This document shows, one piece after another, positions 1 to 15,902 of a stretch of DNA of 15,902 bases (its first letter is position 1; every line of letters starts with the position of its first letter). Source of the stretch: a virus; IMG/VR virus record IMGVR_UViG_3300045988_117751, positions 1 to 15,902 of that record; one strand, given 5' to 3'. The notes beneath the pieces were generated by a model. It searched no databases. It was given only the letters and a program-made list of their open reading frames with translations, and was not told the origin of the DNA. Position numbers and translations under genes: made by a program.

Positions 1-27
1 TATGCCTATTCTATTCCAACCCTGTAC
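1..27. repeat. Left inverted terminal repeat (27 bp perfect; 31/32 if extended to nt 32)
   Basis: nt 1-27 TATGCCTATTCTATTCCAACCCTGTAC equals the reverse complement of nt 15876-15902. The first mismatch is at position 28 and positions 29-32 match again. Confidence 0.9.
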
Positions 28-47
28 ACCATTTGTACTTAAATATT

Positions 48-91: not shown

Positions 92-1714
92 TTATTCTTC
101 TATATTATCATTACCAAATACACCATGAGCATAAATAGCAGTAATGTCTGTAAGGTCTGTTTTAACTCTGTATAATATTTTTCCTTCGTTAGTTATGTAA
201 ACACAACATGGTATTGCTCCTTCAGTAGTTGAAATGGCAATCGCTGACAATGGGTTATTTACTAAAGGAAGATATAAGTTGTTAATGCTACCATAGTTAA
301 CAAGGGTATTTAATGTTGGATTATCAATTTTTAAGCTGATAATATTAGCGAATTTAGTCCTTCTATAGCTAATGTCTTTATTCGATACAGGTGTTTTTAA
401 AGCTGGATAATATTTTCTTGTGTATGTGTTAAAACCTTCAATTACATTATACCAGTTAAGTACGCCGTTTGTTGGCAACCCACCTGCACTACTCCTTGAA
501 TTAATATAAATAAAATCAGTATCTACTACAGGCACAAATGGTAGTATAAATAAGTTCCTATAACCTGTTTCGCCATAATCACTAGCCAGACTCGTGTTAT
601 TAGAATCGGATACACCGGGGTAAATTGATGTTTTTCCGCTATTCTTATTATACTCATAGTCAATAGAAATTATCAGTGTATATTGCCTGTCTTTTTTAAA
701 TCCATTAACAGGTGTACAAGTTGTTGTGCCATTGAAATTTTCTATTGTGTTTTTTGTGCTTGCGCCTATATTATTAACAGGTAACGTATAATTGCTATAC
801 GGTAATCTAGCCGCCATCACCAACTGATTGAAATAAGGTGTTAAATATTTGGCTATTTTGGGAACTGTTCCAACCTCCCAAACAGTGTAAACCGCATCGT
901 TATTAACACAACTGAAAACAGCACTGTGATTGATGCCAAAAAACGAGGGGTCTGTTCCGCCACCTTCAAGGTTGTAGAAAAGTATATCACCGGTTTTTAA
1001 TTCGTTTACGCTTTTAGGCTTAAAGCAATATCCTCTATCATACAGCCACTGACATAACTGACCAGAAAATTTCCATGTTGTATCATCAGCATCGTCGCCG
1101 CTTGAATAGAAATCTTTAATATCCTGATTTTCAAAAAGCAAATTATTCATGATATTATTTTTTCCGTTATATTTTGAGTTGTTAAATGTTACCCCTAATA
1201 GTAAAAGCATAACAAAAGTAGAACAGTTAATTTCATATTTGTTATCAACTTTTTCAACATTTTTTCGGAAAGCGGCATGTTTGTATCCATATACGAAATC
1301 ATTTCTGTTAACATAAGTGTTTGCGGTATTAGCTATTTCAGTGTAAGCCTGTGTCGAATTTGTAATTTTCGGTTGCATAGGTAAAAGAGCTGTTACTATA
1401 GCGGTTGTTAAACTGCCATCTTTAAGCATCGCATCCAGTTTGTTGTTAATTTCATTCTGAACATCCAGATTGTTAAAGTAATTATTAACATATCCTTGTA
1501 ATTCAACATATGCCTTATGCAAATTAGTTACATCGCCGTGTAAAGTGTCGACATCCTCCATAGTTTTATTAAGATAATCAACAACCTTACAAAGCAACTC
1601 ATAATAACTTAAACTATCATCATACACCAATGGCAACACTTTCTGACACCAATATCTAAATGGCTGTAGCTCTCTATACTCACCTAAAGGTGGCGTAAAA
1701 TTAGCATTACTCAT
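92..1714 (-). CDS. Tail appendage / receptor-binding protein (gp12 position) with an internal NlpC/P60-like cysteine peptidase domain
   Basis: ATG at 1714 with RBS AAAGGGGA 8 nt upstream. It is the last gene of the structural operon, after the lower collar, as gp12 is in phi29. The N-terminal segment FTPPLGEYRELQPFRYWCQKVLPLVYDDSLSYYELL looks like the conserved anchor of Firmicutes phage tail fibres. Residues ~135-305 carry INCSTFV (Cys), GDILFY and INHSAVF (His), typical of NlpC/P60. The C-terminal ~230 aa are unrecognised and presumably bind the receptor. Confidence 0.7.
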   Translation of the reverse strand: MSNANFTPPLGEYRELQPFRYWCQKVLPLVYDDSLSYYELLCKVVDYLNKTMEDVDTLHGDVTNLHKAYVELQGYVNNYFNNLDVQNEINNKLDAMLKDGSLTTAIVTALLPMQPKITNSTQAYTEIANTANTYVNRNDFVYGYKHAAFRKNVEKVDNKYEINCSTFVMLLLLGVTFNNSKYNGKNNIMNNLLFENQDIKDFYSSGDDADDTTWKFSGQLCQWLYDRGYCFKPKSVNELKTGDILFYNLEGGGTDPSFFGINHSAVFSCVNNDAVYTVWEVGTVPKIAKYLTPYFNQLVMAARLPYSNYTLPVNNIGASTKNTIENFNGTTTCTPVNGFKKDRQYTLIISIDYEYNKNSGKTSIYPGVSDSNNTSLASDYGETGYRNLFILPFVPVVDTDFIYINSRSSAGGLPTNGVLNWYNVIEGFNTYTRKYYPALKTPVSNKDISYRRTKFANIISLKIDNPTLNTLVNYGSINNLYLPLVNNPLSAIAISTTEGAIPCCVYITNEGKILYRVKTDLTDITAIYAHGVFGNDNIEE

Positions 1715-1729
1715 TTCAATATCCCCTTT

Positions 1730-2608
1730 CTACCATAACCCGAAAAATAAATCTTTGAACTCATCAATAACCTGCATATCAATGTTAATAAAAGTATCCC
1801 TATACTCAATCAGCATCTTACTATAACTTCCACCACCCATTTTCCCCGTAACACTCTCACTAAAAGCATCCCCCTTCGTACCGCTCTTAGCATTGGTATT
1901 ATTCAACGTGCTGTTAACCGTCTGACTATTAACACCCTTAACTTCACTTGTCCCAGCATCAGTAACAGTCTCGTCAACATCCGTATTACTATTACCGCTA
2001 TCCGTAACCTTCCTAGCGTTCGTTAAATATGTTTCATTTTCAACTCCAGTCAACGCCCCCTGTGGAGTATCACTATACAAGTCTTTAGAAGTCCCACCGG
2101 TACTCCCAACCTCTGTTGTTTTTCCGGTTCTCGTATTACCTGTCTTACCAGTATCCGTGCTACTTCCTTCACTCTGGGTCTGTCCCTTATTCTCATAACT
2201 GCCATGCTCTGTTTCCGTAACATCCCTCTGACTACTTCTCGTATAATCCACATCATAGAATGGTTCAAACTTTAACTTAGCGCTTTCATACAACTGGTTA
2301 TAATAAGGCATAATTTCTTCAAACTTAGTGTTCATCCAGAGCATCCAAATACCAACAGTCTCAGCACCTATCTCCCTCAGATAGTAATGTTTCAAAACCT
2401 TACTAACCAGTTTCTCACGATAAGCTTCATCAAAGATAGCGAAGTTAGACGTAACTACCTTATTCCAGCTATTACTCAGCACTTCATCCACATCAGAAGC
2501 ACCAACGCTACCCTCAAGTCCAGCTTTCTGTTCGCAAATAAATCTCACTTCTGTAGTATACTTACTCACCTTCCTCACCGCCTTCACTATCAACTTCACC
2601 GTCAACAT
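1730..2608 (-). CDS. Lower collar protein (gp11-like); start uncertain
   Basis: 292-aa ORF directly after the connector gene, matching the size and position of phi29 gp11. It has a central Thr/Ser/Gly-rich low-complexity segment. The ATG at 2608 has no obvious RBS and overlaps the connector by 47 nt. An in-frame GTG at 2569 overlaps the connector stop (GTGAGTAA) and may be the real start. Confidence 0.6.
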   Translation of the reverse strand: MLTVKLIVKAVRKVSKYTTEVRFICEQKAGLEGSVGASDVDEVLSNSWNKVVTSNFAIFDEAYREKLVSKVLKHYYLREIGAETVGIWMLWMNTKFEEIMPYYNQLYESAKLKFEPFYDVDYTRSSQRDVTETEHGSYENKGQTQSEGSSTDTGKTGNTRTGKTTEVGSTGGTSKDLYSDTPQGALTGVENETYLTNARKVTDSGNSNTDVDETVTDAGTSEVKGVNSQTVNSTLNNTNAKSGTKGDAFSESVTGKMGGGSYSKMLIEYRDTFINIDMQVIDEFKDLFFGLW

Positions 2609-3440
2609 CAGGAATCTGGAAATCTTCTCTATACTTCACGCTCACGTCCAGACCAAACAAATCATTAATCCTATCACACGCCTGTTCTCTCATAGCCAGT
2701 CTGCTATACCTACTCGCAACAGTTCCACCCTGGCTTCTCGTAACCTCATCAGTTATCAACCTTTCCCTCTTCTGATAACTAACATTGCTAATACCCAAGT
2801 ACGTCAGCGCTTCATTCCAAATCTGGCTTTTTAACTCATACAGTTTATCAGCGACAAAGGGTGCATCTGTTTTAAGAACTCCGAACCCCTTAATGTCCAA
2901 GTTCTTATCTCCAAATAAAACAGGACTATTACCGTCATACTCCTTATAGACATTTAAGAGTGACAACCTCTGTTTCTCATCGCACTGAATAAGAACAGGA
3001 GTTTTTTGTGCTTTAGCATTAATGTCAATCGCGCTATCTAAATCCCACAATCTTTGAGCGTAATACATGACATCCTGAGCACTCGGAACTCTCATATAGT
3101 TGTTCCATATAATGACACTATCTTTATCAGTGAAAGAGTCAGAATTGTAACCACTATATCGACTGTACGCTCTACGGACTTTAGGCTCACCATAGACATC
3201 AAAACTACCATTAGCCAGACACCCCAGAGCCAAATACCCCAGAACATCATCCTTAAAAAATAACGTCTGACCTGTCAGAAACAACTCCATTTCAAGATAT
3301 CTCACATCAACGCTTTCCGGTAATCCCTCCCACTTAAACATACTCATAGATAACTCGCATAATCTTCTCAGGTACATGTTATTTGAAAGCATGTTTTTCG
3401 CCAAACTTGACGAGAAATTATTTTTACCTCTTCTTCCCAC
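2562..3440 (-). CDS. Head-tail connector / portal (upper collar, gp10-like)
   Basis: The segment NAKAQKTPVLIQCDEKQRLSLLNVYKEYDGNSPVLF parallels the phi29 gp10 connector as I recall it (NAQKTPVLI..QLSL..VY..YEGNAPVIF). FKWEGLPESV parallels FEWENLPPTI. The N-terminus is basic (MGRRGK). The start codon is GTG at 3440, 8 nt after AGGAGG. Confidence 0.9.
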   Translation of the reverse strand: MGRRGKNNFSSSLAKNMLSNNMYLRRLCELSMSMFKWEGLPESVDVRYLEMELFLTGQTLFFKDDVLGYLALGCLANGSFDVYGEPKVRRAYSRYSGYNSDSFTDKDSVIIWNNYMRVPSAQDVMYYAQRLWDLDSAIDINAKAQKTPVLIQCDEKQRLSLLNVYKEYDGNSPVLFGDKNLDIKGFGVLKTDAPFVADKLYELKSQIWNEALTYLGISNVSYQKRERLITDEVTRSQGGTVASRYSRLAMREQACDRINDLFGLDVSVKYREDFQIPDVDGEVDSEGGEEGE

Positions 3441-3457
3441 TTCATCACCCTCCTTTC

Positions 3458-5026
3458 CTAACTTATAGCACTGGGACTATTATCCAGATGATACTGCCCG
3501 ATTTCACTACCTTTTTTCCAAAAGGTAATACCGTTATCATAAATACCGCATATTTTTCTCATGTCATCACACGGTATACTACCAGTTATCGTGCACCCTA
3601 CGGTTTTCACGTAGTTCCAATGAGGTCGAGAGTTTCTGTTTGGTCTAACCAACTGTTTTACTGCATACCCGAAACGAGTAAAATAATCATCAATAACAAT
3701 AGCATTATCCAGATTAATGCTACACCTCGTATAGTAAAACTGGTTTTGTCTATGAGCTGTGATAGCACTACCAGAATTAAAGTTTCCACTACTAACGTCT
3801 GCTCCTCTCTTTGCTTTATACGCACCACTTATAGTATTTGTGACAGCACTTAAAGCGTTCACACCCCCAGCCGCTGTAGCAAGTCCACCTCCACCAGCCA
3901 ACGCACTAATACCAGCGAACAGTGCGTTTAGAGCCGCTGAAAAAGTATTTGGTACAGCCGTTTGCGCTATGTAAGCCTGATACCCGTCTATAGCCCAACT
4001 ACACATAGGAAAAGAGTTTAACTCTAAACTTTCTGTAGGACACAGAGTTGTTCCCTTGTACCCTATCGGTCGACATATTGCCTGTACAGGCTGGGTTATT
4101 GATGTAAGTAATTCAAAACCATATCTACCGTTTGTTGCTTGCATGAACTCATAACGTAAGTTCATTTTGTTTCCCGAACCATTACAGACCTCCATATAAT
4201 TATACGGATAACTGTACAGTTTTTTGTTTTTCGGTCTGTACCCGTTTAATGTTTCATTACCAGTTAAGGCATCAACAGCAGAAAGAAAGTCTGTTGAGAT
4301 ATCCTGATTAAGTAGTTCTTTACCCCCGTCTGGAATTTCGGAGTTTAAAGCTCGTAACGGGCACGTGTAAATAGCTTGGATATTATCTGTTTTTTGAGCC
4401 ATAGTTTTAAGGTGTTCGTTAATGCCGTGTGTGTCTGTACCCTTAAACGCCATGATAACACCGCTACCATAGATACCTTCGTAGTTTCTACCATTTCCCA
4501 AACTGTCTGTAACATTGATTTCGTTTATCAATACAGCTAATTCTGAAAGGTCACCAAATAATTCGTGATACCCCTCATTTCTAACATACTCACCAACTTC
4601 AAAATTTTCTGGGACTAAATTACTCCCTACCTCGTCTGTTGCTGTATGCTCTCTTTCTACGAAACAATAGTCCAGCGTGTAGTCAAAAAACCATGTTTGC
4701 ATAACGTCAATTTCAAATGCAATTTCAGATGTTTCATTGTTCACATACTCTACACTTTTAATAAATGCATAAAACCATTTATTTCCATAGTTAGTATTCT
4801 GAAACATCATATAATTGCAGTCGTACAGATTATCGGCTTTAACCCTAACCCTAGCCACACCTCTCTTAACTCTCTGGTATGTATAGTTTGTCAGGTTATA
4901 CTTTGTCAAACCAATAAAATAATTCGACTGACTGGCTTTATCTGCAAAGTAAATTGTGTGGTCGTAAGTTGTATCTAAAGGGCAATCCTTCAAAATCTTA
5001 ATATTTGTGCCGGGCTCGATATACAT
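3458..5026 (-). CDS. Tail knob / major tail protein (gp9-like)
   Basis: The N-terminus has the Caudoviral major tail N-terminal pattern (KILKDCPLDTTYDHTIYF..YQRV..NYMMFQN..NKWFYAFI..IDVMQTW). It lies just upstream of the connector, as gene 9 does in phi29. A hydrophobic Gly/Ala-rich loop spans aa ~355-403. ATG at 5026. Confidence 0.85.
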   Translation of the reverse strand: MYIEPGTNIKILKDCPLDTTYDHTIYFADKASQSNYFIGLTKYNLTNYTYQRVKRGVARVRVKADNLYDCNYMMFQNTNYGNKWFYAFIKSVEYVNNETSEIAFEIDVMQTWFFDYTLDYCFVEREHTATDEVGSNLVPENFEVGEYVRNEGYHELFGDLSELAVLINEINVTDSLGNGRNYEGIYGSGVIMAFKGTDTHGINEHLKTMAQKTDNIQAIYTCPLRALNSEIPDGGKELLNQDISTDFLSAVDALTGNETLNGYRPKNKKLYSYPYNYMEVCNGSGNKMNLRYEFMQATNGRYGFELLTSITQPVQAICRPIGYKGTTLCPTESLELNSFPMCSWAIDGYQAYIAQTAVPNTFSAALNALFAGISALAGGGGLATAAGGVNALSAVTNTISGAYKAKRGADVSSGNFNSGSAITAHRQNQFYYTRCSINLDNAIVIDDYFTRFGYAVKQLVRPNRNSRPHWNYVKTVGCTITGSIPCDDMRKICGIYDNGITFWKKGSEIGQYHLDNSPSAIS

Positions 5027-9135: not shown

Positions 9136-9164
9136 CTTGTGACCCCCTTTCTTTTTACATATTA

Positions 9165-9193
9165 ATTATAAAATAAGGGTTGACAAAAGTCAA
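9165..9193 (-). promoter_or_regulatory. Near-consensus sigma-70-type promoter for the lysis and structural operon
   Basis: On the minus strand: TTGACT (9193-9188), a 17-nt spacer, then TATAAT (9170-9165). It lies about 30 nt upstream of the holin ATG. Confidence 0.7.
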
Positions 9194-9208
9194 GTTATAT
9201 ATTAAACT
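9180..9208 (+). promoter_or_regulatory. Divergent promoter for the packaging ATPase
   Basis: On the plus strand: TTGACA (9180-9185), a 17-nt spacer, then TAAACT (9203-9208). Its -35 forms the palindrome TTGACAAAAGTCAA with the -35 of the opposing promoter. Confidence 0.5.
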
Positions 9209-9211
9209 AAT

Positions 9212-9284
9212 TAATAAGTAGTAATAAGTATTTCTTATAAGTGCTTATAAGTGTAACTTATTAATAACATTTTATTTATAAGTG
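9212..9284. repeat. Phased array of short repeats (consensus TWATAAGTR), likely regulator binding sites
   Basis: TAATAAGTA at 9212 and 9222. CTTATAAGTG at 9234 and 9244 in tandem, each containing the palindrome CTTATAAG. An inverted copy ACTTATTA at 9256. TTATAAGTG at 9276. The first four copies are spaced by 10, 13 and 10 bp. Confidence 0.6.
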
Positions 9285-9294
9285 GGTGAAATAG

Positions 9295-13627: not shown

Positions 13628-13660
13628 AAAGAAAGGGCGGTGGACATTAACCCACCACCC
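13628..13660 (-). terminator. Intra-operon intrinsic terminator / attenuator between the SSB and terminal protein genes
   Basis: On the minus strand, GGGTGGTGG pairs with CCACCGCCC (9 bp including one G-U, 8-nt loop; 13660-13635), followed by TTTCTTT (13634-13628). Confidence 0.55.
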
Positions 13661-13680
13661 TAATTGAAACTTTTTATTTA

Positions 13681-14034
13681 TCAGAGCTTTGAAGTATCTA
13701 ACTCTACGTTAATAAATGTACGTCCAGCCTTTGTAATACCACTTGTTTTAATGATAGCGAACTGCTCACCGTCCATAATTTTCTCGATATCGGAAAGTGA
13801 CCGCTTTACTGTTTTTGACTGTGCGCTGTATACTTTCTTGTCTGGTGTGATGATAGATACAACCTCAGAAACTTCACCAGTTGTTTCCTTCACGTCATTA
13901 AATTCGATGGTGCCAGAAACTGTAATGCTAGTCCCGTCTGGAACATCCTTTAAAGATGTAATTCCTGGCGCTACGGTCATAAGATACTTCTCTACCTTAT
14001 CAAATTCTCTTGATTCTCTTGTGATTTCTACCAT
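13681..14034 (-). CDS. Single-stranded DNA-binding protein (p5-like)
   Basis: 117 aa with RBS AGGAGA. VPDGTSITVSG..., KVYSAQSKTVKRSLSDIEKI and GITKAGRTFINVEL resemble my recollection of phi29 p5 (LPDGTIIEAN..., SLYSAISKTVAEAASDLIDL, GTSSKGNVFFSLQL). Its position between the p6-like and TP genes matches phi29. Confidence 0.6.
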   Translation of the reverse strand: MVEITRESREFDKVEKYLMTVAPGITSLKDVPDGTSITVSGTIEFNDVKETTGEVSEVVSIITPDKKVYSAQSKTVKRSLSDIEKIMDGEQFAIIKTSGITKAGRTFINVELDTSKL

Positions 14035-14057: not shown

Positions 14058-14360
14058 TTAGTCCTGTGCGTTTTCGTCTGTTTCTGTTTTTGTTCTTGGC
14101 GGTAACTTTTCCGCCAGCTCGATAAAGTTCTGCTCTGTCATACCGTAAAGAGTTTCCACGATTTCTGTAGAAATAACTTTTACGGGAATGAGCGTTGCAT
14201 CCATTGTTTCCTTAACTGCCTTAAGTAATTTGCTGTCGTCTGTGTAAGTGCGTGGCACTTCAACCACCTGTGTTACTGTTTCCTCTGCTACTGTGTTCAC
14301 GCAAAGAATCGTTGCTTTTGTTGTTGTGACTGTTCTTGTCACCATTGGTTTTCTTGCCAT
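14058..14360 (-). CDS. Small DNA-binding protein (p6-like histone-like protein), tentative
   Basis: 100 aa from the ATG at 14360 (RBS AGGAGA 10 nt upstream). It is the first ORF of the replication operon, as gene 6 is in phi29. The C-terminal tail is acidic (TKTETDENAQD). TRTVTTTKATI and LYGMTEQNFIELA loosely resemble my recollection of p6. The ORF-track start at 14462 is rejected. Confidence 0.45.
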   Translation of the reverse strand: MARKPMVTRTVTTTKATILCVNTVAEETVTQVVEVPRTYTDDSKLLKAVKETMDATLIPVKVISTEIVETLYGMTEQNFIELAEKLPPRTKTETDENAQD

Positions 14361-14425
14361 TTGGGAGTGGTCTCCTTTCTTAATTTGATTTTTGTTTAGT
14401 TGTTTCGGCTTATGCCAGACTACTG

Positions 14426-14481
14426 TCACGCTACGACACCGGGAGCGAACTGAGATTTTCAAAATTTCGGGTGTAGCGTGA
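14426..14481 (-). other. Long stem-loop immediately 3' of the tRNA
   Basis: TCACGCTAC (14426-14434) pairs with GTAGCGTGA (14473-14481). The stem extends by ACC/GGT across a 3-nt bulge, and an inner AT-rich hairpin is present. It starts 1 nt after the tRNA discriminator base. No U tract follows. Confidence 0.35.
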
Positions 14482-14482
14482 A

Positions 14483-14555
14483 TGGACTATACAGGAGTTG
14501 AACCTGTGACTAAGCGTTTATGAGACGCTTGCTCTGCCTACTGAGCTAATAGTCC
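14483..14555 (-). tRNA. tRNA with anticodon CAT (elongator Met or lysidine-dependent Ile2)
   Basis: Hand-folded 73-nt cloverleaf. Acceptor GGACTAT/ATAGTCC, D stem GCTC/GAGC, anticodon stem AGCGT/ACGCT, loop CT-CAT-AA, variable loop TAGTC, T stem ACAGG/CCTGT with loop TTCAACT, discriminator A. No encoded CCA. G1-C72 is paired and there are no three consecutive G-C pairs at the base of the anticodon stem, so it is not an initiator. Confidence 0.9.
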
Positions 14556-14563
14556 TGGGGTTT

Positions 14564-14596
14564 CCGGGGTTGGTGTTTGGATAGGAGCAACCCCGG
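14564..14596 (-). other. GC-rich hairpin in the leader, 8 nt upstream of the tRNA
   Basis: CCGGGGTTG (14564-14572) pairs with CAACCCCGG (14588-14596): a 9-bp stem with a 15-nt loop. In RNA sense the loop reads CUCCUAUCCAAACAC. Confidence 0.45.
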
Positions 14597-14635
14597 TGAA
14601 TGGCTTGTAACAAGTTATTTCTTATTACATTATTT

Positions 14636-14664
14636 ATTATATCAGTTGTTGTGGTGTTTGTCAA
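14636..14664 (-). promoter_or_regulatory. Consensus sigma-70-type promoter for the tRNA and replication operon
   Basis: On the minus strand: TTGACA (14664-14659), a 17-nt spacer, then TATAAT (14641-14636). Both hexamers match the consensus perfectly. Confidence 0.8.
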
Positions 14665-14821: not shown

Positions 14822-14998
14822 TTATGGAAATTGAATTTCCGTATCTGAGTCTGCCTCTGGAGGATAATTATCCCCTTCTATTACCTGAAATGGGTAGCGC
14901 TTAAATTGTCTATAATATGCGTCACATACCTTATCATGCATGCATTCTCTGCATGTTCTACATAAATAGCAAATTATAACTAATTCTTTACTTTTCAT
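14822..14998 (-). CDS. Hypothetical 58-aa Cys-rich protein (C-x2-C-x2-C-x2-C-x5-C)
   Basis: Below the ORF-track cut-off. RBS AGGAGA lies 6 nt before the ATG at 14998. Translates to MKSKELVIICYLCRTCRECMHDKVCDAYYRQFKRYPFQVIEGDNYPPEADSDTEIQFP. Confidence 0.5.
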   Translation of the reverse strand: MKSKELVIICYLCRTCRECMHDKVCDAYYRQFKRYPFQVIEGDNYPPEADSDTEIQFP

Positions 14999-15745: not shown

Positions 15746-15774
15746 ATAATAACACATGTGTACCTATATGTCAA
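15746..15774 (-). promoter_or_regulatory. Right-end early promoter
   Basis: On the minus strand: TTGACA (15774-15769), a 17-nt spacer ending in TGT (extended -10 type), then TATTAT (15751-15746). Confidence 0.7.
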
Positions 15775-15862: not shown

Positions 15863-15875
15863 GGGGGAATATGGG

Positions 15876-15902
15876 GTACAGGGTTGGAATAGAATAGGCA
15901 TA
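15876..15902. repeat. Right inverted terminal repeat
   Basis: This is the reverse complement of nt 1-27. Confidence 0.9.

What the first reader, a model, noticed from the sequence alone, without database searches (positions are those of the whole stretch)
14361..14664. Perfect consensus promoter driving a ~270-nt untranslated RNA island with a full-length tRNA(CAT) ahead of the replication genes
Most genes in this genome abut or overlap, yet about 270 nt between a TTGACA-17-TATAAT promoter and the first replication ORF are non-coding. The interval contains a 9-bp GC hairpin, a canonical 73-nt tRNA with anticodon CAT, and a long stem-loop starting 1 nt after the tRNA. To my knowledge tRNA genes are typical of large phages and not of ~16-kb protein-primed podoviruses. 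RNase P and 3' processing of the tRNA would also cut the early transcript, separating a ~70-nt leader RNA from the replication mRNA. If the tRNA is an Ile2 type (lysidine, reads AUA) it could support AT-rich phage codon usage. It could also act as a replacement or decoy against host tRNA-targeting defences. Both functional ideas are hypotheses.
Basis: partly seen in the sequence, partly recalled or inferred. Interest (0 to 1): 0.7.

Follow-up and report, generated by a model that had tools for sequence, protein, structure and literature searches.

The report
tRNA-based punctuation in phage replication leader
A small gut phage carries a genuine tRNA gene in the untranslated leader of its DNA-replication genes; relatives keep stripped-down tRNA-like stubs at the same spot, so the element probably serves mainly as a cutting signal that shapes the messenger RNA.

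Summary
A 12/12 extended -10 promoter (14664-14636) drives a ~269-nt structured leader (z = -6.2). It contains a 5' AT hairpin, a 9-bp GC hairpin, a canonical CCA-less 73-nt tRNA(CAT) (14555-14483; ARAGORN; Rfam 69.3 bits) and a long hairpin starting 1 nt after the discriminator.

The window is a complete 15.9-kb phi29-like genome with 32-nt terminal repeats. The leader precedes a p6-like/SSB gene pair that ends at a conserved terminator.

All 14 genome sequences of this lineage keep the tRNA. Every stem shows compensatory changes and the anticodon loop never varies, so it is a working elongator tRNA, probably Ile2.

At the same position, about 60 more distant relatives carry tRNA-derived elements of 41-110 nt. 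Their anticodon arm is expanded, scrambled or deleted, but the 12-bp acceptor/T-arm stack and T loop are kept and a hairpin again follows directly. Some relatives have a second copy inside a polycistron.

The best reading is a tRNA or tRNA-like punctuation module excised by host RNase P and RNase Z. This is inferred; no transcript ends were mapped. The closest analogue is the plant mitochondrial t-element. I rate it a new variant of a known kind.

The parts
14636..14664 (-). Sigma-70/SigA-type promoter: TTGACA (14664-14659), 17-nt spacer, TG-n-TATAAT (TG 14644-14643, TATAAT 14641-14636). Presumed transcription start near 14629.
   Evidence: It is the only 12/12 match in the window, with an extended -10 TG. 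Both hexamers are invariant in six close relatives. Equivalent strong promoters sit at the same place in distant relatives. The transcription start site is not mapped.
14606..14629 (-). TSS-proximal AT-rich hairpin (UGUAAUAAG ... CUUGUUACA).
   Evidence: It appears in the RNAalifold consensus and in the MFE structure. A homologous AAUGUAAUA hairpin starts the short leaders of clades that lack the tRNA-like element.
14564..14596 (-). 9-bp GC hairpin. A C-rich 8-nt spacer (14563-14556, AAACCCCA) follows and runs up to the tRNA 5' end.
   Evidence: L006 carries a compensatory U-A to A-U change. An analogous GC hairpin ends 7-9 nt before the element in most tRNA-like-element types, with a C-rich spacer. 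In the 19-sequence L045 group, pair 24/43 is AU:8, GC:8, GU:3.
14483..14555 (-). Canonical 73-nt elongator tRNA with anticodon CAT and no encoded CCA. Probably tRNA-Ile2.
   Evidence: Found by ARAGORN and by Rfam at 69.3 bits. Compensatory changes occur in the acceptor, D and anticodon stems. The anticodon loop CTCATAA is invariant across the 14 genome sequences recovered for the lineage, window included; a few may be the same genome recovered twice. It is 80% identical to a phage tRNA annotated Ile2.
14426..14481 (-). Long stem-loop (about 14 bp) starting 1 nt after the discriminator. It is the proposed protective 5' end of the processed p6-like/SSB mRNA.
   Evidence: RNAalifold finds compensatory pairs at columns 153/200 and 155/198. 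About 33 of 38 distinct downstream sequences in relatives have a hairpin beginning within 2 nt of the discriminator. This count adds the seven window-lineage sequences by inspection, because their stem is longer than the 40-nt window scored. The scored criterion gave 68% against 21% at random positions.
14400..14424 (-). Small GGC-AUAA-GCC hairpin and the conserved CCGAAACAAC motif.
   Evidence: Conserved in alignments A1 and A3. L006 and L008 have GGC-GAAA-GCC. The CCGAAACAA motif is also present in the L013 group. Its function is unknown.
14358..14375 (-). Shine-Dalgarno GGAG (14375-14372), which can pair with CUCC (14367-14364), then the ATG (14360-14358) of the p6-like gene.
   Evidence: The 4-bp mini-hairpin is kept in all six aligned lineage members and is present in the MFE structure.
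14058..14360 (-). 100-aa gene for a p6-like dsDNA-binding protein.
   Evidence: Matches PHROG 6370 'dsDNA binding protein' at E = 1e-5. Orthologues starting MAR.PM follow the element in relatives.
13681..14034 (-). 117-aa phi29-type SSB gene.
   Evidence: Matches Pfam PF17427 Phi29_Phage_SSB at 37.6 bits and PHROG 14995.
13634..13661 (-). Intrinsic-terminator-like hairpin (12 bp) followed by a T-rich tail (TTCTTT), between the SSB and terminal-protein genes. It is the 3' boundary of the p6-like/SSB unit.
   Evidence: Found by the terminator scan. A strong GC-rich hairpin sits at this position in 19 of 19 representative relatives, followed in most by a T-rich run.

Best explanation
The interval is the 5' leader of the phage's most heavily needed early transcription unit: the p6-like DNA-binding protein and SSB genes, closed by a terminator hairpin.

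A consensus promoter drives an RNA with this layout: 5' hairpin, GC hairpin, an 8-nt C-rich spacer, a CCA-less tRNA(CAU), 1 nt, a long hairpin, an A-rich spacer, then the SD and ATG.

The tRNA is a working elongator tRNA, most likely Ile2, which would be lysidinylated by host TilS to read AUA.

It is also this lineage's version of a family-wide tRNA-derived punctuation element. I propose that host RNase P cuts at its 5' end. Host RNase Z, the enzyme for CCA-less precursors in Bacillota, cuts after the discriminator. Excision would leave two products:
- an upstream RNA that ends in a GC hairpin and so resists 3' exonucleases;
- a p6-like/SSB mRNA that begins with a hairpin, resists 5' exonuclease, and ends at the terminator hairpin, giving a stable message.

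Shown here: the tRNA, the structures, their conservation and covariation, and the syntenic tRNA-like elements. Inferred: the cleavages, the enzymes involved and the stabilising effect.
For: tRNA reality:
- ARAGORN and Rfam at 69.3 bits both call it.
- RNAalifold on six sequences finds 8 pairs with double compensatory changes.
- The lineage shows four fully compensated anticodon-stem versions plus one imperfect one, around an invariant CTCATAA loop in the 14 genome sequences.

Family-wide element:
- In the 330 nt upstream of the p6-like gene, a strict acceptor plus T-arm detector is positive in 51 of 110 relatives. It is positive in 0 of 110 shuffled sequences and 0 of 110 coding controls.
- With near-misses read by eye, about 61 of the 67 genomes that have MAR.PM, MRESMV or related (non-MFTRTL-type) p6-like genes carry it.
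- A further 16 of 54 independent metagenome loci are positive: six carry the lineage's tRNA and ten carry elements, most of new types.
- The Rfam tRNA model still scores four element types above its gathering threshold although the anticodon loop is destroyed. L009 scores 46 bits with a 31-nt insert. L073 scores 51 bits, L090 scores 44.4 bits with the arm deleted, and L045 scores 44 bits with a 23-nt insert.
- Only the window lineage has a canonical tRNA.
- In 25 distinct acceptor/T-arm sequences, 11 of 12 pairs covary. The covariation score is 0.995 against 0.19 for shuffles.
- None of the elements encodes CCA.

Architecture and punctuation:
- About 33 of 38 distinct downstream sequences have a hairpin starting within 2 nt of the discriminator, counting the window lineage's long stem by inspection. 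The scored criterion gave 68% against 21% for controls.
- A GC hairpin ends 7-9 nt upstream of the element.
- Second copies lie directly after an ORF stop, with no consensus promoter, ahead of a p6-like paralogue or another small ORF. Each is again followed by a hairpin. This fits internal punctuation.
- A strong hairpin follows SSB in 19 of 19 representatives.
- Clades without the element start the mRNA directly with a homologous hairpin.

Ile2 assignment: plus the C4:G69 TilS determinant from PMC11947777.
Against: - There are no RNA data: no mapped 5' or 3' ends and no cleavage assays.
- The primary transcript already begins with a hairpin, so the benefit of re-cutting is not obvious.
- About 49 of 110 relatives do without the element: the MFTRTL-type clade, L029-31, and L032/36/38.
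- The L024 group and L035 lack the adjacent 3' hairpin.
- In the L045 group, the loop of the expanded 'anticodon' arm is almost invariant in sequence. A pure cutting signal does not explain that; it hints at an additional binding function.
- My detector required base pairing, so the 99% paired figure is circular. Only the controls and the variety of pair types carry weight.
- The host is unknown. Clostridia is suggested only by cultured relatives and by binning of relatives into metagenome-assembled genomes (MAGs).
- The Ile2 call rests on similarity, not on isotype-specific models.
Confidence: 0.58

Rival explanations
1. An ordinary phage-encoded codon-supplement tRNA (Ile2 for AUA, or elongator Met). 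Its position in the leader is incidental, and it has no role in shaping the mRNA.
For: - The tRNA is fully canonical and under purifying selection.
- The phage is 37.9% GC. ATA accounts for 72 of 292 Ile codons, with 18 in PolB. There are none in the capsid, SSB, p6-like or scaffold genes, so ATA behaves as a rare codon.
Against: - Relatives keep non-decoding stubs of the tRNA at exactly this site, with covarying acceptor and T stems and adjacent hairpins.
- ATA usage in PolB is as high or higher in L009 (0.59) and L034 (0.60), which have no canonical tRNA.
Confidence: 0.17
2. The excised element, alone or with its flanking hairpins, is a trans-acting structural RNA. One example would be the missing prohead (packaging) RNA of non-Bacillus phi29-like phages.
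For: - The phage has a Podovirus_Gp16 ATPase and a gp10-type connector, yet no pRNA.
- The island is by far the largest non-coding segment.
- It is driven by the strongest promoter.
- The loop sequence of the L045-type elements is conserved.
Against: - There is no Rfam pRNA match even at E <= 10.
- Its position differs from that of the phi29 pRNA gene.
- I saw no covarying loop-loop complementarity. That check was by eye only.
- About 49 of 110 relatives, judged by their shared SSB gene and genome size to be the same kind of phage, lack the element in the stretches examined. Their packaging genes were not checked.
- Element sizes range from 41 to 110 nt.
Confidence: 0.07
3. A cis-regulatory tRNA mimic. 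The acceptor/T-arm module binds a host or phage protein that recognises the tRNA top half, such as the CCA-adding enzyme, EF-Tu, TruB/TrmA or a phage factor. This would control translation or stability of the p6-like/SSB mRNA without cleavage.
For: - Only the top half is conserved.
- An SD-sequestering mini-hairpin sits nearby in the window lineage.
- The GTTACGTTTGCCA leader motif is conserved and unexplained.
Against: - The conserved module is exactly the minimal RNase P / RNase Z substrate and is CCA-less.
- Internal copies sit at cistron boundaries.
- No candidate binding partner has been identified.
Confidence: 0.1
4. A decoy or replacement tRNA that counters host tRNA-targeting defence nucleases.
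For: The only support is precedent in other phages, recalled from memory (phage T5 tRNA-Lys against the PARIS defence system; mycobacteriophage tRNAs). Nothing in the sequence points to it.
Against: - Known anticodon nucleases read the anticodon loop. Relatives keep the element after losing that loop.
- The anticodon loop shows no unusual substitutions.
Confidence: 0.04
5. The elements in relatives are merely decaying tRNA pseudogenes with no function, and the window tRNA is a recent passenger.
For: Anticodon arms are lost or scrambled in different ways in different clades.
Against: - Neutral decay would not preserve a 12-bp stack through 11 covarying pairs, the T-loop motif, and the fixed hairpin spacing across more than 25 distinct sequence types.
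- Elements have been duplicated to second sites.
Confidence: 0.04

Closest known systems
Plant mitochondrial t-elements and the organellar tRNA punctuation model (PMC1920247)
   Same: - Both are tRNA-like folds with non-canonical cloverleaves but a conserved GGTTCRANYCC T arm.
- Both lie in mRNA leaders or between cistrons.
- Canonical tRNAs and degenerate elements are used interchangeably at such sites.
- In plants the elements are proposed, and partly shown, to direct RNase P and RNase Z cuts that create mRNA ends.
   Different: - This case is in a bacterial virus of about 16 kb that relies on host enzymes.
- The elements are tightly tied to one gene (p6-like) and flanked on both sides by hairpins at fixed spacing.
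- No transcript ends have been mapped here.
Murine gammaherpesvirus 68 tRNA-miRNA units and the MALAT1 mascRNA (from memory: Bogerd et al. 2010; Wilusz et al. 2008)
   Same: - A viral or cellular tRNA-like element is immediately followed, or preceded, by a structured RNA.
- tRNase Z or RNase P cleavage at the element defines the end of the neighbouring functional RNA.
   Different: - Those are eukaryotic Pol III or Pol II transcripts, and the partner RNA is a pre-miRNA or a lncRNA 3' end.
- Here the partner is a bacterial-type mRNA 5' end.
Phage-encoded tRNA genes, including Ile2(CAT) genes of large Bacillus and Enterococcus phages
   Same: - The window tRNA is 78-81% identical to CAT tRNAs of Enterococcus phages. 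It is 80% identical to the 'tRNA Ile2; CAT anticodon' of Bacillus phage KLEB27-3.
- Its acceptor stem GGACTAT/ATAGTCC is identical to that of one of the two CAT tRNAs of phiSHEF13.
   Different: - Those genes sit in tRNA clusters of 37-217-kb genomes.
- This is a single tRNA embedded in the 5' UTR of the replication operon of a 15.9-kb protein-primed phage.
- The review of phi29-like phages records tRNAs only as predictions in some metagenomic clusters.
phi29 prohead RNA (pRNA, Rfam RF00044)
   Same: Both are abundant non-coding RNAs from a strong early promoter in a phi29-like genome that encodes a Gp16 ATPase and a gp10 connector.
   Different: - There is no match to the pRNA covariance model.
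- The genomic position differs.
- The fold here is tRNA-like rather than a three-way junction with interlocking loops.
Bacterial tRNA-mRNA co-transcripts and RNase P cleavage of polycistronic mRNAs (from memory: the E. coli tufB operon; Li and Altman 2003)
   Same: tRNA processing enzymes act on transcripts that also encode proteins.
   Different: Those cases involve true tRNAs or weak non-tRNA sites. They are not a conserved series of anticodon-less tRNA derivatives with flanking hairpins.

Membership tests
Bacterial-type elongator tRNA gene | Cloverleaf with 7/4/5/5-bp stems and a 7-nt anticodon loop, recognised by tRNA predictors. | tested here: met
   ARAGORN calls tRNA-Met(cat) at 14483-14555 on the minus strand. 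Rfam RF00005 scores 69.3 bits against a gathering score of 29.
Bacterial-type elongator tRNA gene | Conserved tertiary-interaction nucleotides: U8, A14, G15-C48, G18G19, U33, G53-T54-T55-C56, A58. | tested here: met
   Read directly from the sequence GGACTAT TA GCTC AGTAGGCA GAGC A AGCGT CTCATAA ACGCT TAGTC ACAGG TTCAACT CCTGT ATAGTCC A. All are present.
Bacterial-type elongator tRNA gene | Structure kept by compensatory substitutions among homologues. | tested here: met
   Double changes are seen in the acceptor stem (A-U to G-C), the D stem (C-G to U-A) and the anticodon stem (several pairs). The anticodon loop is invariant in the 14 genome sequences.
Bacterial-type elongator tRNA gene | Expression, CCA addition and aminoacylation. 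| not testable with these tools
   CCA is not encoded: TTC follows A73. No RNA data are available.
Initiator tRNA-fMet | 1:72 mismatch, three consecutive G:C pairs at 29-31/39-41, and A11:U24 (features recalled from established knowledge). | tested here: not met
   The tRNA has G1-C72 paired. Anticodon-stem positions 29-31 are C, G, U. Pair 11:24 is C:G.
tRNA-Ile2 (lysidine, reads AUA) | CAU anticodon plus acceptor-stem TilS determinants. C4:G69 is shared by the E. coli and B. cenocepacia systems (PMC11947777). | tested here: met
   C4:G69 and A73 are invariant in all lineage members. The determinants are species-specific, so this is supportive only.
tRNA-Ile2 (lysidine, reads AUA) | Closest isotype-labelled homologues are Ile2 rather than Met. 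| tested here: met
   The tRNA is 80% identical to the KLEB27-3 tRNA annotated 'tRNA Ile2; CAT anticodon'. In phiSHEF13, which has two CAT tRNAs, the window tRNA matches the GGAC-type one (78%, identical acceptor stem). It matches the other at only 57%.
tRNA-Ile2 (lysidine, reads AUA) | Best score with the Ile2 isotype-specific covariance model (tRNAscan-SE 2), and lysidine at position 34. | not testable with these tools
   tRNAscan-SE 2 is not available here and there is no modification data.
t-element / tRNA punctuation signal | tRNA-like fold with a conserved T arm and acceptor stem but a non-canonical remainder. | tested here: met
   Met in relatives, not in the window itself, whose copy is canonical. 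The relatives' elements are 41-110 nt with a 12-bp acceptor/T stack and a T[TG]CRA loop.
t-element / tRNA punctuation signal | Located at mRNA or cistron boundaries. | tested here: met
   The element always lies in the leader of the p6-like gene. Second copies lie directly after an ORF stop.
t-element / tRNA punctuation signal | Transcript 5' and 3' ends coincide with the element's ends, and RNase P/RNase Z cleave it. | not testable with these tools
   This needs RNA end mapping or enzyme assays.
phi29 prohead RNA (pRNA) | Match to the pRNA covariance model or fold. | tested here: not met
   There is no RF00044 hit at gathering threshold or at E <= 10.
Sigma-70/SigA promoter | -35 TTGACA, 17-nt spacer, (TG)-TATAAT, conserved in relatives. 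| tested here: met
   12/12 with TG, and invariant in six relatives. The transcription start site is not mapped.
Codon-supplement phage tRNA | The cognate codon is enriched in genomes that carry the tRNA relative to those that lack it. | tested here: inconclusive
   The ATA fraction of Ile codons in PolB is 0.37-0.52 in the lineage. It is 0.59 and 0.60 in L009 and L034, which have no tRNA, and 0.19-0.39 in other groups.

The most novel reading that the evidence does not exclude
The excised tRNA or tRNA-like element, possibly with its flanking hairpins, is itself a functional trans-acting RNA of these phages. The most striking version is the long-sought counterpart of the phi29 prohead RNA in non-Bacillus phi29-like phages. 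Another is an RNA that titrates a host factor which reads the tRNA top half. This would explain the near-invariant loop sequence of the L045-type elements and the strong dedicated promoter.
Probability: 0.08. Interest if true: 0.9.

Novelty: new variant of a known kind. Interest (0 to 1): 0.64.

Why it matters
If host RNase P and RNase Z do excise these elements, small gut phages use tRNA punctuation. That device is known from mitochondria and from one herpesvirus. Here it would set the ends and stability of the mRNA for their most abundant replication proteins.

The series of forms runs from a working tRNA(CAU), through anticodon-less cloverleaves, to 41-nt minihelices. It is a natural experiment in how a tRNA gene turns into a pure processing signal, and it marks out the minimal substrate that bacterial tRNA-processing enzymes accept in vivo.

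There are two practical consequences:
- Genome annotators report these elements as odd tRNAs with inconsistent anticodons (Phe, Leu, Lys, Glu and an undetermined type). Such calls should not be read as decoding capacity.
- A cultured system exists for testing the idea: the C. symbiosum phages CS229P1-3.

Tried and rejected
- Classifying the tRNA by BLAST against annotated E. coli genomes. The best hits were a tRNA-Met and tRNA-Thr genes at 73-77% identity, which is uninformative.
- Looking for a pRNA or any other Rfam family in the window at E <= 10. Only the tRNA was credible.
- Correlating ATA usage in PolB with tRNA presence. There was no clean pattern.
- Recruiting more lineage members from IMG/VR with a flank pattern. 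It returned only the five contigs already held, plus chance hits.
- Searching metagenomes with the SSB alignment. The one intermediate relative found (L142, SSB 79% identical) is truncated before the island.
- Inferring the host from genome contigs. Only three distant relatives turned up, binned in Clostridia metagenome-assembled genomes (MAGs), which is weak evidence.
- Testing the long-range GCCA/UGGC helix that would enclose the whole domain. It is predicted in the window lineage but is not found in other clades, so I do not rely on it.
- Looking by eye for pRNA-style complementary loops between the 5' and 3' hairpins. I found only a non-conserved 4-nt AT match.
- Building a custom covariance model of the stub elements. 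I dropped this because the variable middle segment (9-60 nt) makes a single model unsuitable. The Python detector with controls and the Rfam tRNA scores were used instead.
- Literature searches for tRNA-like elements in phi29-like or other phage leaders. They found nothing specific.
Full report
**1. Observation**

All the features lie on the minus strand.
- The promoter scan finds a single 12/12 site in the window: TTGACA (14664-14659), a 17-nt spacer and TATAAT (14641-14636), preceded by TG.
- ARAGORN finds one tRNA in the window, at 14483-14555 (minus strand), with anticodon CAT.
- Rfam's tRNA model scores it at 69.3 bits, against a gathering score of 29 (E = 1e-13), full length.
- Reading the strand confirms the 9-bp GC hairpin (14596-14588 pairing with 14572-14564).
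- It also confirms a long stem (14481-14426) whose first pair is 1 nt after discriminator A14483.
- The downstream ATG is at 14360, behind AAGGAG.
- The 269-nt leader folds to -78 kcal/mol, against -50.5 +/- 4.5 for 200 dinucleotide shuffles (z = -6.16). The minimum-energy fold contains the cloverleaf and all the flanking hairpins.
- CCA is not encoded.

Three refinements apply:
- The -35 hexamer lies inside a conserved 44-aa ORF whose TGA stop supplies the extended -10 TG.
- There is an additional TSS-proximal AT hairpin (14629-14606).
- The Shine-Dalgarno (SD) GGAG can pair with a CUCC just before the ATG.

**2. Context**

The window is a complete linear genome with 32-nt inverted terminal repeats.
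- Pfam and PHROGs identify a Phi29-type MCP, connector gp10, tail knob gp9, Gp16 packaging ATPase, protein-primed family-B polymerase and Phi29-type SSB.
- PHROG 6370 identifies the 100-aa product of the first downstream ORF as a p6-like dsDNA-binding protein.
- The gene order is p6-like, SSB, terminal-protein candidate, polymerase, as in phi29.
- A terminator-like hairpin followed by a T-rich tail sits between the SSB and terminal-protein genes (13661-13634). A strong GC-rich hairpin occupies that position in 19 of 19 representative relatives, followed in most by a T-rich run.
- The island therefore leads a bicistronic p6-like/SSB unit.

As for the host, the closest cultured phages are the Clostridium symbiosum phages CS229P1-3, with PolB 62% identical. 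Three relatives are binned in Clostridia metagenome-assembled genomes (MAGs). All metagenomic relatives come from human gut samples.

**3. The tRNA is real and under selection**

The tRNA is present in every recovered member of the window's lineage:
- six IMG/VR contigs with PolB 91-97% identical;
- seven gut-metagenome contigs with SSB 91-96% identical.

At least one metagenome contig appears to be the same genome as an IMG/VR contig. The count of 14 genome sequences, window included, is therefore an upper bound on independent genomes.

An RNAalifold run on six full leaders gives 61 pairs, 8 of them with changes on both sides. These are:
- acceptor pair 6:67, A-U to G-C;
- D-stem pair, C-G to U-A;
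- three anticodon-stem pairs;
- the GC hairpin, U-A to A-U;
- two pairs in the 3' stem.

Across the lineage the anticodon stem occurs as AGCGT/ACGCT, AGCGT/GTGCT, ACCGT/GCGGT and CGTAT/ATACG. One low-coverage variant is imperfect. The loop CTCATAA never changes. One-nucleotide indels in the leader rule out a conserved ORF.

**4. Which CAT tRNA is it?**

It is not an initiator. G1-C72 is paired, there is no run of three G:C pairs in the anticodon stem, and 11:24 is C:G. These hallmarks are from established knowledge.

Four lines favour Ile2:
- C4:G69, a TilS determinant in both tested systems (PMC11947777), is invariant, as is A73.
- The closest homologue with an explicit isotype label is 'tRNA Ile2; CAT anticodon' of Bacillus phage KLEB27-3, at 80% identity.
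- Enterococcus phage phiSHEF13 has two CAT tRNAs. The window tRNA matches the GGAC-type one at 78%, with an identical acceptor stem GGACTAT/ATAGTCC. It matches the other at only 57%.
- ATA makes up 25% of Ile codons. It is absent from the capsid, scaffold, SSB and p6-like genes and frequent in PolB (18 codons), the pattern expected of a codon limited by a minor tRNA.

Two points count against over-reading this:
- PolB ATA usage is equally high in relatives without a canonical tRNA.
- No isotype-specific model could be run.

I put Ile2 at about 0.7 and elongator Met at about 0.3.

**5. What relatives have at this site**

ARAGORN finds no tRNA in relatives with PolB at or below 65% identity. Even so, nearly all of them have a strong promoter followed by a 200-300-nt non-coding leader in front of the p6-like gene. 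That leader contains tRNA-derived elements.

I wrote a strict detector. It requires a 5/5 T stem, a 7-nt loop T[TG]C[AG][AT]NN, and an acceptor 3' strand directly abutting the T stem and pairing at 6-7 of 7 positions with an upstream strand.
- It fires in 51 of 110 leaders, in 0 of 110 shuffled leaders and in 0 of 110 coding controls.
- Counting near-misses read by eye, about 61 of the 67 genomes with MAR.PM, MRESMV or related (non-MFTRTL-type) p6-like genes carry the element. The near-misses have, for example, a 6+6-bp stack or a single T-loop change.
- The roughly 43 genomes with MFTRTL-type genes, plus six others, have short leaders without it.
- Sixteen of 54 independent metagenome loci were also positive: six with the lineage's tRNA and ten with elements, most of new types.

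Sizes run from 41 to 110 nt. The Rfam tRNA model still scores several types above its gathering threshold while showing that the anticodon loop is gone:

| Element | Rfam tRNA score | State of the anticodon region |
|---|---|---|
| L009 | 46 bits | 31 nt where 9 are expected |
| L073 | 51 bits | unpaired A/U-rich filler |
| L090 | 44.4 bits | arm deleted |
| L045 | 44 bits | 23-nt insertion |

ARAGORN, when it calls these elements at all, gives 80-93-nt 'tRNAs' with inconsistent anticodons: Phe, Leu, Lys, Glu and one undetermined.

The L045-type insert still contains CTCAT. This suggests descent from a tRNA(CAT).

Other groups keep only a minihelix: acceptor stem, a short filler and the T arm. 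These include the L013 and L024 groups and L035, L049, L081, L104 and CS229P2.

In 25 distinct acceptor/T-arm sequences, 11 of 12 pairs show changes on both sides. The covariation score is 0.995, against 0.19 for shuffles and 0.22 or less for slid registers. The detector demanded pairing, so the percentage paired is circular. The diversity of pair types and the negative controls are the evidence.

**6. Conserved architecture**

- A hairpin starts 0-2 nt after the discriminator in about 33 of 38 distinct downstream sequences. This count adds the seven window-lineage sequences by inspection, because their stem is longer than the 40-nt window scored. The scored criterion gave 68%, against 21% at random positions.
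- A GC hairpin ends 7-9 nt upstream of the element, with a C-rich spacer.
- In the 19-sequence L045 group, RNAalifold recovers the 5' hairpin, acceptor stem, extended arm, T arm and 3' hairpin, each with covariation.
- None of the elements encodes CCA.
- Several genomes carry a second minihelix elsewhere in the early region. It sits directly after an ORF stop, with no consensus promoter, ahead of a p6-like paralogue (L081, L001, L095) or another small ORF (L013 group, L018). Each is again followed by a hairpin.
- The cultured phage CS229P2 has this internal arrangement.
- Clades without the element begin the mRNA directly with a hairpin homologous to the window's TSS-proximal hairpin.

**7. 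Mechanism (inferred)**

What is conserved is a 12-bp coaxial acceptor/T stack, a T loop and no CCA. From established knowledge, that is the minimal substrate of RNase P, RNase Z and the CCA-adding enzyme.

In Bacillota, CCA-less precursors are cut by RNase Z right after the discriminator (Pellegrini et al. 2003). 5'-terminal hairpins protect mRNAs from RNase J1 (work from the Bechhofer and Condon laboratories). Both statements are from memory.

I therefore propose excision of the tRNA or stub element. This would leave an upstream RNA capped by a 3' GC hairpin. It would also leave a p6-like/SSB mRNA bounded by a 5' hairpin and a terminator hairpin. Such a stable message would suit two proteins that phi29 needs in very large amounts (from memory). 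In the window lineage, the excised product is in addition a decoding tRNA.

Weak points:
- There are no RNA data.
- The primary transcript already has a 5' hairpin.
- About 45% of relatives lack the element.
- The near-invariant loop of the L045-type arm suggests an extra, unknown interaction.

**8. Comparison with known systems, and novelty**

The closest analogue is the plant mitochondrial t-element. There, canonical tRNAs and degenerate tRNA-like folds with a conserved GGTTCRANYCC arm mark mRNA ends through RNase P and RNase Z (PMC1920247). MHV68 tRNA-miRNA units and MALAT1/mascRNA work similarly (from memory).

Phage tRNA genes are common in large phages. For phi29-like phages, the 2024 review says only that most have none and that some metagenomic clusters have predicted ones.

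Four literature searches found no description of tRNA-like leader elements in these or other phages. The library searched is incomplete.

The element is not a pRNA.

I classify the finding as a new variant of a known kind. The tRNA itself is an ordinary kind of gene in an unusual host genome. The family-wide series of anticodon-less derivatives at a fixed mRNA position, flanked by hairpins, appears to be undescribed.

**9. Verdict**

The decoy idea is unsupported, and the family-wide element was missed.
- Interest is 0.64.

Noticed in passing
window 1-32 and 15871-15902: A 32-nt inverted terminal repeat, 97% complementary. The window is therefore a complete linear, protein-primed genome.
   Followed up: partly
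window 13634-13661 (minus strand): A terminator-like 12-bp GC hairpin followed by a T-rich tail lies between the SSB and terminal-protein genes. A strong GC-rich hairpin sits at that position in 19 of 19 representative relatives, including clades without the tRNA-like element, and most are followed by a T-rich run. It probably attenuates read-through into the TP and polymerase genes.
   Followed up: partly
window 14364-14375 (minus strand): The SD GGAG of the p6-like gene can pair with CUCC 4 nt downstream. This mini-hairpin is kept in all aligned lineage members and could modulate translation.
   Followed up: no
window 14601-14611 (minus strand); L045-L066, L049, L073, L090, L104, L001 leaders: A conserved leader motif, GTTACGTTTGCCA(T/C)AG (GTTACAAGCCA in the window), sits at the foot of the 5' GC hairpin in many clades. 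In the window lineage, GCCA 14604-14601 could pair with UGGC 14417-14414. That pairing is not family-wide, and the motif's function is unknown.
   Followed up: partly
L045-type loci (for example L045:1837-1928): The roughly 23-nt loop of the expanded 'anticodon' arm is almost invariant in sequence across 19 distinct genomes (ATCTTAAATAA..TCATCGCTCATT), while the stems covary. A pure processing signal does not explain this.
   Followed up: no
L198 (Clostridium phage CS229P2, OP172773.1) 1916-1969: This cultured relative, which infects Clostridium_Q symbiosum DA229, carries an unannotated minihelix tRNA-like element. The element lies directly after an ORF stop and upstream of its p6-like/SSB pair. 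It offers an experimental system.
   Followed up: partly
L081:1024-1068, L001:1029-1074, L095:785-838, L013:686-732, L018:826-885: A second minihelix element followed by a hairpin occurs further upstream in the early region. It often precedes a second p6-like paralogue (MARERMV, MARKRMV or MARVKMV).
   Followed up: partly
L002 (MT838485.1) 662-3629: This unrelated 5.2-kb human-faecal phage contig has a tRNA cluster (Gln, CAT, Arg, Cys). It also holds several tRNA-like elements with long insertions, for example a 121-nt element at 1570-1690.
   Followed up: no
window 15746-15774 (minus strand) and 9136-9294: A second near-consensus promoter (TTGACA-17-TATTAT with TG, 11/12) lies near the right end, so upstream early transcripts probably read through the island. 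Divergent promoter-like sites (TTGACT-17-TATAAT on the minus strand, TTGACA-17-TAAACT on the plus strand) lie in the gap before the plus-strand packaging ATPase gene.
   Followed up: no
window 14822-14998 (minus strand); L003, L005, L006: The 58-aa Cys-rich early protein (CxxC motifs) is present as 2-4 tandem paralogues in close relatives.
   Followed up: no
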